Below, piece after piece: positions 49,525-57,101 of a stretch of 64,000 bases of DNA. Location of the stretch: the IMG/VR virus record IMGVR_UViG_3300020451_000152, positions 1 to 64,000 of that record; one strand, given 5' to 3'. The DNA is from a virus. Numbering within the stretch: the stretch's first letter is position 1; every line of letters begins with the position of its first letter. The notes beneath the pieces were generated by a model, which ran no database searches, was not told where the DNA came from, and saw nothing but the letters and a program-made list of their open reading frames with translations. The position numbers and the translations under genes were made by a program.

Positions 49525-49665
49525 GTAATTACTCTCCTACAAGTTCATTTAGTACTCGCAATACATCTTCACCAGTTTTACACTCATAGAAGAATGATTC
49601 AATGTCGATGTTAGCGAAAGGAACAGATTGTGCGAACATGATAATAAAATGAAACAACAAAAAAA

Positions 49666-49739
49666 CTGGACTTACACTCAATGATTGTTGGCAATGCTAA
49701 CTCCTTTGCGAAGTCTAATTATGCCCCATTGGATGCCAG
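49666..49739 (-). ncRNA. Candidate 74-nt structured RNA (helix-UAAGU bulge-helix; possibly abiF-like motif)
   Basis: Nested pairings CUGG/CCAG, CAAUG/CAUUG, GGCA/UGCC, GACUUC/GGAGUU, then a U8 tract; family assignment from memory only. Confidence 0.6.
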
Positions 49740-49744
49740 AAGAG

Positions 49745-50062
49745 TTAGTTTAAACCTAACTCAAAACCATTTACGAAATCTTCAGTAAGGTTCTTGTAAC
49801 CTACGAACCACTCAAATTGCTTTTGAAATACTCTAGCACCATAAGAAAACTCATCTAATAGTGCATTGAGTCTAGACTTAGTGGTGACTGACTGCCAACC
49901 GCCATCGAATAAAAGAATCGAATTGTCTTTAACTGTAGCAATGTGGTTACCATGAAGATAGATCATTGAACCAGTCTCATCAGATTTTACCATAGTGTTG
50001 GATGATGAGAAGTTAGAACGGTTTCTAACTGCTGAATTCATTTGTCTTTCGATCTTTCTCAT
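49745..50062 (-). CDS. Conserved hypothetical early protein
   Basis: LHGNHIA...GGWQSVTTKSRLNAL...VFQKQFEWFV; behind motif promoter. Confidence 0.8.
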   Translation of the reverse strand: MRKIERQMNSAVRNRSNFSSSNTMVKSDETGSMIYLHGNHIATVKDNSILLFDGGWQSVTTKSRLNALLDEFSYGARVFQKQFEWFVGYKNLTEDFVNGFELGLN

Positions 50063-56381: not shown

Positions 56382-56438
56382 ATTATAGCATAAAAAAAGA
56401 CCCCCGAAGGGGTCTTGTGACAGTTATTTGATTGCCAC
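56382..56438 (-). promoter_or_regulatory. Palindromic-motif early promoter, copy 6 (terminator in spacer)
   Basis: GTGGCAA-N8-CTGTCAC then TATAAT. Confidence 0.7.
56392..56416 (-). terminator. Rho-independent terminator with cUUCGg tetraloop
   Basis: AAGACCCC-TTCG-GGGGTCTT followed by T tract. Confidence 0.9.
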
Positions 56439-56723
56439 TCTCTCTGGAACTTTAACATCTAGATTTTGTAGGAAATTAACTACAAATGCTTCCAGATAGA
56501 TCAAAGGGAGTATAACAAAATCAATACCTCTAAGTTTTGTGAATTTAGAGTAATCAACTGTTTTAACTTCTTCATTGACATTTAGTGTCAATGTTTCTGC
56601 TTTAACTTCTTCAGTCACAATTGGTTTAGCAACTGGAGTATTTAGAGTTTTAGTAACAGTTGTTTTACGAGTGCGTCTTTTGCGAGGAGTTGTAACTTTC
56701 TTCGCTGTAGATGCAGTTGGCAT
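56424..56723 (-). CDS. Hypothetical protein with basic N-terminus and hydrophobic C-terminal segment
   Basis: ORF track 56424..56738; start MPTAS at 56723. Confidence 0.7.
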   Translation of the reverse strand: MPTASTAKKVTTPRKRRTRKTTVTKTLNTPVAKPIVTEEVKAETLTLNVNEEVKTVDYSKFTKLRGIDFVILPLIYLEAFVVNFLQNLDVKVPERVAIK

Positions 56724-56745: not shown

Positions 56746-57101
56746 GCGAAACATTAAGGGTAATGTAATTTTAATTCAACATCATGTCTCTACTTCTTGT
56801 TTGAGAGGAGTGGGGCAATGATCTGGGTTTCACCCAGTTGCCCAAATTTACCTACTGGGAATCGCTTACACCTGTACCCCCAAACTTAATCGGGGCAGTA
56901 GAACCACATATCCAAATGGGACTTACAACTTCAAAACTGTCTTTTCAGATGTCCGAGGACATCAGCAGTACTAGAGGTCTCCAAACATAAAGAGCAGTTA
57001 TCCACAGCGTGATCAAAGATCATCTGAATTGTTGCTCACCCCTGCCTAGCGTTTGCCCATTCTCAAAACTGTTAGAGTAGTTGAACCCTTAACTGTTTCG
57101 C
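56746..57101 (-). ncRNA. Candidate ~356-nt multi-domain structured RNA
   Basis: Starts ~7 nt after TATAAT; the two ends form a 16-bp helix; many internal helices; no minus-strand ORF in the track. Confidence 0.75.

What the first reader, a model, noticed from the sequence alone, without database searches (positions are those of the whole stretch)
49666..49739. Second RNA shares a helix-UAAGU-bulge-helix module with the long RNA: possible antitoxin-RNA mimics
Seen: the 74-nt element reads CUGG-CAUC...GAGUG-UAAGU-CCAG, and a domain of the long RNA (57060-56916) reads AUGGG-CAAAC...GUUG-UAAGU-CCCAU. Both keep GGCA on the 5' side and UGUAAGUCC on the 3' side, the closing pairs differ compensatorily, and the enclosed arms are unrelated. 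That is the pattern expected of a protein-binding RNA module. From memory (unverified), this resembles the abiF RNA motif, whose bacterial members accompany AbiF HEPN toxins and which has been annotated in some cyanophages. No AbiF-like ORF is evident in this window. Inference: orphan antitoxin-like RNAs used as early anti-defence decoys, one free-standing and one embedded in a larger scaffold.
Basis: partly seen in the sequence, partly recalled or inferred. Interest (0 to 1): 0.78.

Follow-up and report, generated by a model that had tools for sequence, protein, structure and literature searches.

The report
Portable UAAGU-bulge RNA stem in cyanophages

Summary
Both loci read NNGG-C-A...G-UAAGU-CCNN on the minus strand. 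In this window alone the match is no better than chance, but related phages settle it.

- **Strand bias:** the same base was found 24 times in sense and 0 in antisense around long-RNA cores, and 11 versus 0 behind Gp96 genes.
- **Conservation:** G3, G4, C5, G, UAAG and CC are invariant. The outer two pairs covary and the distal arms are swapped freely.
- **Unbiased sample:** in a subfamily chosen without looking at the bulge, 14 of 14 members have UAAG(U/A)+CC.

The AbiF interpretation fails.
- Rfam RF03085 does not match, although the same tool finds it in phage S-CREM1.
- The virus record has no Abi_2 gene.
- Picocyanobacterial Abi_2 genes carry an RF03085-like hairpin, not this module.

The element is best described as a portable adaptor stem of an uncatalogued family of modular cyanophage leader RNAs. 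It ends about 26 nt before a conserved 36-aa acidic ORF. In P-SSM2 and many metagenomic phages the homologous ORF is preceded by the long RNA or other modules. The stem is probably a recognition or architectural element that defines RNA boundaries or tunes downstream expression, but its partner is unknown. Earlier work in this scan noted the same bulged stem on other cyanophage DNA.

The parts
49666..49739 (-). 74-nt free-standing UAAGU-bulge adaptor hairpin, subfamily 'a' (GGCAUCCAAUGGG...AUCAUUGAGUG-UAAGU-CC)
   Evidence: Sequence. Scores 58.7 bits against model R1, which was built from 23 family members including this element, so that score is by construction. 13 other distinct IMG/VR homologues share the stem and bulge but carry different distal arms.
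49736..49739 (-). Outer helix H1, 5' strand (CUGG). Pairs with 49666-49669 (CCAG).
   Evidence: The inner G-C/G-C pairs are invariant. The outer two pairs covary across 23 aligned members: UA, CG, GC, AU.
49734..49735 (-). C5 (pairs with G at 49675) and the conserved A6
   Evidence: C5 and its partner G are invariant. A6 is present in 21 of 23 members whether or not a Watson-Crick partner is available.
49670..49675 (-). G (49675) plus the 5-nt bulge UAAGU (49674-49670)
   Evidence: G, U, A, A, G are invariant in alignment A2 and the fifth base varies. Among the 82 descriptor-positive contexts it is U 51, A 30, G 1. 14 of 14 in the subfamily chosen without the bulge.
49697..49720 (-). Distal cargo arm AAUUAGAC-UUCGCAAAGG-AGUUAG
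   Evidence: The same arm recurs in other adaptor stems (L020, L031, L167) and inside the P3 insert of a long-RNA core (L188).
49640..49665 (-). 26-nt U/A-rich spacer (U7-GUUGUUUCAUUUUAUUAUC) between the hairpin and the next AUG
   Evidence: Comparable spacers ending in UUAUUAUC/UUUUAUU precede the homologous ORF in L106, L144, L193, L240 and P-SSM2. The consensus scan does not call it a terminator.
49529..49639 (-). 36-aa acidic ORF (MFAQSVPFANIDIESFFYECKTGEDVLRVLNELVGE)
   Evidence: Aligns with the PSSM2_071 family (FAE...G.(D/E)(V/I)L.VL..V; 25-42% identity). A family member lies within 700 nt downstream of 23 of 96 long-RNA cores, against 0 of 105 in the same span upstream.
49745..50062 (-). 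Upstream gene, Kyanoviridae Gp96 (PF23790). Its stop codon lies 5 nt before the hairpin.
   Evidence: Pfam E = 2e-44. Adaptor hairpins of other subfamilies follow or precede Gp96 homologues in L019, L020, L026, L031-L033 and L037-L042.
56914..57062 (-). Embedded adaptor stem (H1 of 7 bp, GAAUGGG/CCCAUUU) carrying a ~130-nt multi-hairpin cargo, subfamily 'd'. Inserted in the 5' strand of P1 of the long RNA.
   Evidence: Sequence. The same domain is placed 3' of the core in AG-345-L05, L121, L159 and L183, and stands alone in the scaffold in L403. It is absent from the closest relative, L196.
56921..56925 (-). UAAGU bulge of the embedded copy
56798..56912 (-). Conserved three-way-junction core of the long RNA (P1a, P2, P3, P4). 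The invariant 16-mer GGUGUAAGCGAUUCCC lies at 56872..56857.
   Evidence: The consensus fold has 36 pairs, 14 of them with compensatory changes. No Rfam match.
56746..57101 (-). Whole long leader RNA: outer scaffold helix plus the adaptor domain plus the core
   Evidence: The scaffold is shared with L196 (cargo = core only), L403 (cargo = adaptor domain only) and L394 (a different cargo). The bins holding it have the highest summed contig depth of the 7.7 kb laid in RNA library X1. These are contigs only, so this is a weak hint.
56424..56723 (-). 99-aa protein with a conserved N-terminal Arg-rich motif (TPRKRRTRK) and a hydrophobic C-terminus. Its AUG lies 22 nt after the long RNA.
   Evidence: 25 IMG/VR relatives. 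The motif is nearly invariant in most of them, and 7 of the 25 had a core or adaptor upstream by the automatic scan, more by eye. It is a candidate partner only; this is untested.

Best explanation
The 74-nt element belongs to an uncatalogued family of cyanophage RNA hairpins defined only by their base.

**Defining features**
- An outer helix whose inner end is G-G/C-C.
- A C-G pair and a conserved A on the 5' strand.
- A 5-nt bulge UAAG(U/A) on the 3' strand.
- Everything distal to this base is exchangeable cargo, from a 3-nt loop to a 130-nt multi-hairpin domain.

**Role**
The base acts as a portable adaptor stem for cis-acting leader and intercistronic RNA modules in the early region. Here it starts 5 nt after the Gp96 stop codon and ends 26 nt before the AUG of a Shine-Dalgarno-less 36-aa acidic ORF. 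A second copy carries a large domain inside the long leader RNA in front of an Arg-rich protein gene.

**Mechanism (inferred, not shown)**
The invariant bulge is a sequence-specific recognition or architectural site, bound by an unidentified host or phage factor. That site would define or protect RNA boundaries (processing, end protection or read-through) and so set expression of the downstream gene. The arms add further functions. It is not an AbiF antitoxin mimic.

**Confidence by part**
- About 0.9 that it is a real RNA-level module of this family and not abiF.
- About 0.35 for the factor-bound boundary or expression mechanism.
For: - **RNA-level and strand-specific:** 24 versus 0 and 11 versus 0 sense/antisense hits, with G-U pairs in the helices.
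- **Invariant base with covarying closing pairs:**
- **Arms swapped between members of one subfamily:** five or more unrelated arms sit on the same GGCAUCCAAUGGG/AUCAUUGAGUG stem.
- **The same arm occurs in different contexts:**
- **The module is placed 5' of, inside or 3' of the long-RNA core:** it is present or absent between closest relatives.
- **Recurrent grammar of module, 20-30-nt A/U-rich spacer, then AUG:** seen in the window, L106, L144, L193 and L240 before the same acidic ORF family. That ORF lies downstream of 23 of 96 cores and upstream of 0 of 105.
- **Placement after stop codons:** modules begin 4-7 nt after stop codons in five unrelated loci.
- **Too short for RNase III alone:** minimal members are 25-35 nt, too short for generic double-stranded RNA recognition, which points to recognition of the bulge itself.
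- **Uncatalogued:** no Rfam family and no literature describe it.
Against: - No binding partner, cleavage site or expression effect has been observed.
- The only transcript data are assembled contigs, which cannot show RNA ends.
- When nested inside the long-RNA core (P3 inserts), a cleavage site would cut that RNA. That context favours an architectural role over processing.
- About 5 of 14 subfamily members are followed by a U-run, so termination may contribute.
- The invariant nucleotides give no covariation to fix the bulge geometry. C5 could pair with either G.
- Much of the descriptor-based sampling required pairing by construction. This is controlled only.
Confidence: 0.45

Rival explanations
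1. One reading: orphan abiF-like antitoxin RNAs that act as decoys for host AbiF/AbiD HEPN toxins.
For: - Abi_2 proteins do exist in a minority of the host family, 15 of 301 genomes.
- An RF03085 hit has been reported in one cyanophage, S-CREM1 (PMC9964418; reproduced).
- AbiF is neutralised by a structured RNA (bioRxiv 10.1101/2025.04.15.648962).
Against: - No RF03085 match at E <= 10 at either locus, with a positive control in place.
- The consensus sequence and structure are unrelated to this module.
- Cyanobacterial Abi_2 loci carry RF03085-like hairpins upstream and no UAAGU module.
- The module sits in cis next to start codons and inside leader RNAs, in far more phages than the 5% frequency of Abi_2 among hosts would explain.
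Confidence: 0.03
2. The 74-nt element is only an intrinsic terminator for the Gp96 transcript, and the shared 9-mer is coincidence.
For: - U7 follows the closing helix.
- U-runs follow about 5 of 14 subfamily members and the AG-345-L05 copy.
- In the window alone the 9-mer is not above chance.
Against: - The terminator scan did not call it.
- A 4-bp basal helix interrupted by a 5-nt bulge makes a poor terminator stem.
- Many members have no U-run. They abut a promoter -35 box, a further RNA module or a start-codon leader instead.
- Bulge invariance and placement inside other RNAs are not explained.
Confidence: 0.07
3. A purely RNA-architectural motif: a hinge or docking element, like a kink-turn or tetraloop receptor. 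It orients cargo arms or docks onto other modules and needs no protein.
For: - It occurs nested in P1 and P3 of the long-RNA core, where cutting would be harmful.
- Invariant nucleotides flanked by variable helices are typical of three-dimensional RNA motifs.
- The core's invariant strand contains a look-alike, GUGUAAGC.
Against: - Free-standing 25-35-nt copies have no RNA partner nearby.
- No covariation links the bulge to any loop.
- It fits no known motif by sequence: no tandem G-A pairs for a kink-turn, and the wrong strand polarity for the 11-nt receptor (from memory).
Confidence: 0.2
4. A DNA-level recombination joint, as with PeSL cassettes of T4-type phages. The conserved stem would provide micro-homology for modular shuffling rather than an RNA function.
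For: - Presence/absence polymorphism occurs exactly at module borders (window versus L196 and L403).
- A contig from run X4 (library type not on record) diverges from the window exactly at 49740.
- PeSL-like promoter-plus-hairpin units lie next to modules (PMC2839356, PMC4122927).
Against: - Strict strand bias, and compensatory rather than identical closing pairs, argue for selection on RNA folding.
- Only about 12 conserved nucleotides are available as homology.
- This reading is not exclusive of an RNA function.
Confidence: 0.1
5. A nut/boxB- or TAR-like site for the Arg-rich small protein encoded just after the long RNA. An arginine-rich peptide would bind the bulged hairpin and modify transcription read-through or translation.
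For: - The TPRKRRTRK motif is nearly invariant in most of the 25 divergent relatives.
- The gene often sits directly behind arrays that contain adaptor stems.
- Arginine-rich peptides classically bind bulged hairpins (textbook knowledge: lambda N, HIV Tat).
Against: - P-SSM2 has the modules, but its flanking genes are not Arg-rich.
- Several relatives of the protein have no module upstream.
- The basic patch followed by a hydrophobic tail also fits a small membrane protein.
- Earlier unchecked notes report the stem in unrelated cyanophages.
Confidence: 0.07

Closest known systems
abiF RNA motif (Rfam RF03085), antitoxin of AbiF/Abi_2 type III-like systems
   Same: A small hairpin RNA with conserved unpaired nucleotides. 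One copy is annotated in a cyanophage (S-CREM1).
   Different: - The sequence and structure consensus is unrelated.
- There is no covariance-model match and no adjacent Abi_2 gene.
- Host Abi_2 loci use the canonical motif.
manA (RF01745) and wcaG (RF01761) RNA motifs of T4-like cyanophages (PMC2864571)
   Same: Conserved structured RNAs of unknown mechanism, found in leaders of marine cyanomyovirus genes and abundant in marine metagenomes.
   Different: - No model match.
- Here the conserved part is a minimal two-helix base with exchangeable cargo, not a fixed multi-stem fold.
T7/T3 early-region RNase III processing hairpins (R0.3-R1.3)
   Same: Intercistronic bulged or internal-loop hairpins between early phage genes. 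They leave protective end structures, and their position relative to stops and starts is similar.
   Different: - Minimal members (25-35 nt) are too short for RNase III.
- Conservation lies in a specific 5-nt bulge sequence.
- No cleavage has been shown.
- Details of the T7 sites are recalled from memory, not tested here.
PeSL (promoter-early stem-loop) cassettes of T4-type phages (PMC2839356, PMC4122927)
   Same: Repeated intergenic stem-loops in hyperplastic early regions that coincide with gene-shuffling joints.
   Different: - The module has no promoter.
- It has a conserved asymmetric bulge and covarying pairs.
- It also occurs inside long non-coding RNAs.
- PeSL-like units occur next to it as separate elements.
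Kink-turn and other helix-bulge-helix protein-binding platforms (lambda boxB/N, HIV TAR/Tat)
   Same: Two helices separated by a short conserved asymmetric bulge. They are reused in many RNA contexts and are typically read by a protein.
   Different: - No tandem sheared G-A signature.
- The bulge is 5 nt of fixed sequence.
- No partner is known.

Membership tests
abiF RNA (RF03085) | Match to the Rfam covariance model at or above the gathering score of 37 bits | tested here: not met
   No hit at gathering score or at E <= 10 at either locus, and none at E <= 1 in 9 related loci. Positive control: S-CREM1 scores 52.2 bits.
abiF RNA (RF03085) | Consensus hairpin CCCGCCA-AGCCUC...GCUCAAAUC-GGCGGGU | tested here: not met
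   The module reads NNGG-C-A...G-UAAGN-CCNN and shares no block with the consensus.
abiF RNA (RF03085) | Lies next to an Abi_2/AbiF gene, or plausibly mimics the host's cognate RNA | tested here: not met
   No PF07751 match in the 74-kb record, which is a 35%-complete fragment. Host-family Abi_2 loci carry RF03085-like RNA and no module.
UAAGN-bulge adaptor stem (uncatalogued; defined here and in earlier notes of this scan) | Outer helix ending in GG/CC with covarying outer pairs | tested here: met
   23 of 23 aligned members; UA, CG, GC and AU at the outer pairs. Permutation control.
UAAGN-bulge adaptor stem (uncatalogued; defined here and in earlier notes of this scan) | C-G pair, conserved A, and a 3'-side bulge UAAG(U/A) | tested here: met
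   Both window copies. Invariant in A2. 14 of 14 in the sample chosen without the bulge.
UAAGN-bulge adaptor stem (uncatalogued; defined here and in earlier notes of this scan) | Exchangeable distal cargo and occurrence on the sense strand only | tested here: met
Intrinsic (Rho-independent) terminator | Uninterrupted GC-rich stem directly followed by a U-tract, as a family-wide property | tested here: inconclusive
   U7 is present here, but the stem is 4 bp followed by a 5-nt bulge and the scan does not call it. A U-run follows about 5 of 14 relatives.
PeSL cassette | Sigma-70-type early promoter fused to a stem-loop | tested here: not met
   No promoter within or in front of the element. PeSL-like units are separate neighbours in relatives.
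RNase III processing hairpin (T7 type) | About 20 bp or more of double-stranded stem, and cleavage in the internal loop | not testable with these tools
   Minimal members have about 9-12 bp. No raw-read RNA data were available, only contigs.
Kink-turn | 3-nt bulge followed by tandem sheared G-A/A-G pairs | tested here: not met
   The 5' strand offers only C-A between the helices, and no GA/AG tandem exists in any register (the motif definition is from memory).
manA / wcaG cyanophage RNA motifs | Match to RF01745 or RF01761 | tested here: not met
   No hits. Both are detected in the S-CREM1 control.

The most novel reading that the evidence does not exclude
The UAAGN-bulge stem is the universal handle of a plug-and-play RNA system in ocean cyanophages. 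A dedicated factor would read the bulge, possibly the arginine-rich small protein encoded beside the long RNA, or a conserved cyanobacterial RNase or RNA-binding protein. Any RNA domain mounted on the stem would then be processed, stabilised or recruited in the same way. That would explain why whole RNA domains are shuffled between leaders much as protein domains are.
Probability: 0.12. Interest if true: 0.8.

Novelty: new variant of a known kind. Interest (0 to 1): 0.58.

Why it matters
T4-like cyanophages are among the most abundant viruses in the sea. Their early regions turn out to hold a large, uncatalogued vocabulary of conserved RNA modules.

- A minimal, portable stem that carries unrelated RNA cargo and sits next to Shine-Dalgarno-less start codons suggests a shared RNA-level control or processing step in early phage gene expression.
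- The exact 16-mer of the associated long-RNA core occurs in more than 117 viral contigs.
- P-SSM2 is cultured and carries at least two copies of the stem plus the long RNA, so the question can be tested directly.
- The result also removes a tempting but wrong anti-defence annotation (abiF).

Tried and rejected
**Checks that returned nothing useful**
- ARAGORN found no tRNA or tmRNA.
- Rfam found nothing at the gathering threshold or at permissive E-values.
- The MFE z-scores of the element and of the long RNA are not significant.
- blastn and nhmmer of the 74-nt element against phage records and Gp96 loci found no full-length homologue, only the inner arm and the downstream ORF.
- The raw pattern GGCR..GTAAGNCC in five complete relatives that lack the module was not enriched over the reversed control.
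- Covariance model R1 was built from 23 members. It recovers the 74-nt copy but misses the embedded copy with its 130-nt insert, so it is not a generic detector and was not used on host genomes.
- The descriptor scan of 786 kb of cyanobacterial 16S-rRNA-anchored loci plus three Abi_2 loci (L247-L369) gave 6 hits, four of them the two strands of perfect-palindrome hairpins, and no conserved host instance.
- BLASTP between the 36-aa ORF and PSSM2_071 gave no alignment. The family link rests on the multiple alignment.

**Sequencing runs**
- Only Logan contigs were available. They give no ends, strand or level, and the holes in cover mean nothing.
- The high summed depth over the long RNA in X1 is only a hint, and shares of relatives' conserved parts are mixed in.

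**Structural analogies considered from memory and dropped**
- The ribosomal protein S8 site of 16S helix 21 (UUAAGUC): the opposite strand lacks the three extra nucleotides.
- The 11-nt GAAA receptor: wrong polarity.
- A T-loop: the fifth base is mostly U.
- UAA/GAN: that motif needs two strands.
- A tRNA-Leu(UAA) anticodon loop.
- RNase P CR-I (AAGUCC).
- A RegA operator: RegA binds unstructured RNA at the start codon.

**Literature**
- Searches for a described cyanophage RNA of this kind found none.

Full report
**1. What is in the sequence**

The window is a fragment of a T4-like cyanomyovirus. It comes from an IMG/VR record of 74 kb, about 35% complete. Its nearest cultured relatives are Prochlorococcus and Synechococcus phages. 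All genes around the finding lie on the minus strand.

- The 74-nt element (49739..49666) reads CUGG-C-A-U...GUG-UAAGU-CCAG.
- It begins 5 nt after the stop codon of a 105-aa gene, which is Kyanoviridae Gp96 (PF23790).
- It is followed by U7 and an A/U-rich spacer.
- 26 nt after the hairpin comes the AUG of a 36-aa acidic ORF.
- The long-RNA domain (57062..56914) reads GAAUGGG-C-A-AAC...GUU-G-UAAGU-CCCAUUU.
- TGTAAGTCC occurs only at these two places in the whole record, both on the minus strand.

So the description is accurate. Judged on the window alone it is not significant. The 8-mer is found twice against 1.45 expected, and the fold energies are ordinary.

**2. Comparative evidence that the module is real**

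Behind Gp96 homologues in IMG/VR, several phages carry hairpins with quite different interiors but the same base:
- UAGG-C-A-...-G-UAAGA-CCUA (L020, L032, L033)
- CUGG-C-G-GUCU...AGAC-G-UAAGA-CCAG, 35-37 nt (L038, L040)
- GGGG-C-A...A-UAAGU-CCCC (L019)
- GUGG-C-A...G-UAAGA-CCAC (L031)

A descriptor requiring GGC, a pair to the base before TAAGNCC, an outer helix of at least 4 bp and an inner helix of at least 2 bp gave these counts:
- 11 sense and 0 antisense hits in the Gp96 loci.
- 24 sense and 0 antisense hits in 84 kb around long-RNA cores.
- 41 distinct sequences in all.

An alignment of 23 members of 25-76 nt has G3, G4, C5, G, U, A, A, G, C and C invariant, and A6 present in 21 of 23. 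The two outer pairs take the forms UA, CG, GC and AU.

That sample was chosen by pairing, so I ran two controls.
- All RTAAGNCC words were taken by sequence alone. The flanks pair with an upstream NNGGC in 82 of 215 cases, against 39.7 +/- 5.1 after flanks were permuted among instances.
- The element's own subfamily was fetched with a pattern covering only the inner stem (GGCATCCAWTGGG...ATCAWTGAGTG). All 14 distinct members have TAAG(T/A) followed by CC, and 10 of 14 have both outer pairs complementary.

It is, so the module passes that test.

**3. What the long RNA is, and how the module relates to it**

The 3' part of the long RNA is a strongly conserved core of about 115 nt.
- BLAST finds the same core in the unannotated gap between PSSM2_070 and PSSM2_071 of P-SSM2, in P-SSM5, and in single-cell-derived marine viruses.
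- Its consensus fold is a three-way junction of 36 pairs, 14 of them with compensatory changes.
- No Rfam family matches it.

The adaptor stem recurs around this core in every position.
- It lies 5' of the core, for example in the window, L109, L116 and L147.
- It lies inside the P3 loop (L171, L178).
- It lies 3' of the core (L121, L159, L166, L183, L196), sometimes as two copies in tandem.

The window's 143-nt domain sits after the core in AG-345-L05. It is absent from the closest relative of the window's RNA, L196, whose scaffold holds only the core. In L403 it is the only cargo of the same scaffold.

The cargo arms are also shuffled.
- The 74-nt element's arm AAUUAGAC...GUUAG recurs on other stems (L020, L031, L167) and in a P3 insert (L188).
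- Its inner stem carries five or more unrelated arms in other phages.

The 74-nt element is therefore a free-standing copy of a peripheral module of a large modular RNA family.

**4. Context and grammar**

Free-standing copies start 4-7 nt after a stop codon in five unrelated loci. They end next to a promoter -35 box, a further RNA module or a start-codon leader.

The 36-aa ORF behind the element aligns with a family of small acidic proteins that includes PSSM2_071 (shared FAE...G.(D/E)(V/I)L.VL..V).
- In L106, L144, L193 and L240 that ORF is preceded, at 25-30 nt, by a UAAGU stem.
- Elsewhere it is preceded by the end of other modules.
- A family member lies within 700 nt downstream of 23 of 96 cores, and within the same span upstream of 0 of 105.

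The long RNA of the window ends 22 nt before the AUG of a 99-aa protein with a conserved Arg-rich N-terminus, through a similar UUAUUAUUCU leader.

The recurring pattern is a structured module, then about 25 nt of A/U-rich leader without a Shine-Dalgarno sequence, then AUG.

**5. The abiF hypothesis**

- RF03085 does not match either locus at E <= 10, nor nine related loci at E <= 1.
- The same tool finds it at 52 bits in S-CREM1, the cyanophage where it was reported (PMC9964418).
- The abiF consensus is a different hairpin.
- The virus record has no Abi_2 domain.
- In 301 sampled genomes of the host family, 15 have Abi_2 above the cut-off. All three loci inspected have an RF03085-like hairpin (29-31 bits, below the gathering score) immediately upstream of the gene, and nothing resembling the module.

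A decoy for AbiF would be expected to mimic that RNA, and this module does not.

**6. Mechanism**

*Shown:* an RNA-level, strand-specific, conserved helix-bulge-helix base with exchangeable cargo, placed at gene boundaries and inside leader RNAs.

*Inferred:* the invariant bulge is the functional site, and it is probably read by a factor.

| Reading | For | Against |
|---|---|---|
| Generic RNase III site | Intercistronic position | Minimal members are 25-35 nt, too short |
| Cleavage site in general | Position at gene boundaries | Nested copies in P1 and P3 would cut the long RNA |
| Plain terminator | U7 after the stem | 4-bp basal helix below a 5-nt bulge; many members lack a U-run |

My best estimate is a recognition or architectural element that marks or protects RNA boundaries and tunes the downstream gene (about 0.35). 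The rivals are:
- a protein-free hinge or docking motif (0.2);
- a DNA-level shuffling joint like PeSLs (0.1, and not exclusive);
- a plain terminator (0.07);
- a site for the neighbouring Arg-rich protein, on the lambda N or Tat model (0.07);
- an AbiF decoy (0.03).

Transcript data were limited to assembled contigs. The long RNA's bins have the highest summed depth of the 7.7 kb in one marine metatranscriptome, but RNA ends cannot be read from contigs.

**7. Novelty**

Neither the module nor the long-RNA core is in Rfam 15. Neither appears in the literature searched, including a 2025 review that lists cyanophage small RNAs as abiF, wcaG, manA, glnA and CfrI.

Earlier notes of this scan describe the same TAAGT-bulged stem and the modular long RNA on other cyanophage DNA. 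I re-derived these observations independently here. I also add the abiF refutation with host-side evidence, the bulge test on a sample chosen without the bulge, the scaffold and cargo comparisons, and the link to the small acidic ORF family.

Noticed in passing
L003:1816-2015, also L005-L007, L021, L028, L036, L040 (behind Gp96 homologues): A near-consensus TTGACA-17-TATAAT promoter runs directly into a GC hairpin plus U-run, like a PeSL unit. A conserved non-coding stretch containing CCCTAACCTACAAAGGTTCCCCA follows. No Rfam match in L003, L028 or L040.
   Followed up: partly
window 49529-49639 (-); P-SSM2 PSSM2_071; L106, L109, L144, L240 and others: A family of 35-42-aa very acidic early proteins (FAE(F/C)...(D/E)(V/I)L.VL(D/E)D.V) is almost always encoded 25-30 nt behind a structured RNA module. 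Its function is unknown.
   Followed up: partly
window 56424-56723 (-) and L386-L410: A small protein has a conserved N-terminus MPTASTAK.(.)TTPRKRRTRK and a hydrophobic C-terminal segment. Its gene is frequently preceded by long arrays of RNA modules. No Pfam or PHROG family matches.
   Followed up: partly
L387:1110-1200, L388, L406, L196:3901-3990 (3' of adaptor stems): Another recurrent RNA module reads CACACAACAACGAGGAGAUGGAUGUGCCUCGUGGAUCGCAACC...ACAUCCCUAUAG. It has a hairpin and a possible pseudoknot (GGAUGU/ACAUCC). I first misread it as a Shine-Dalgarno sequence plus AUG.
   Followed up: no
L367:2213-2264, L368:2206-2259, L369:2186-2230 (minus strand): Picocyanobacterial Abi_2 genes carry, directly upstream, a hairpin matching RF03085 at 29-31 bits, below the gathering score of 37. 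This is probably a divergent cyanobacterial branch of the abiF RNA that Rfam thresholds miss.
   Followed up: partly
window 49740 (junction between the Gp96 gene and the hairpin): A contig from run X4 (library type not on record) matches 49526-49740 and then diverges. A contig from run X3 has a 2-nt insertion at the same point. This suggests strain-level recombination exactly at the module's 5' edge.
   Followed up: no
L121 (cores at 1275 and 2184); G012:C1:91613-91824: Two long-RNA cores lie about 900 nt apart in one contig, and two adaptor stems lie in direct tandem in another. Arrays of these modules can be multi-copy.
   Followed up: no
   Followed up: no
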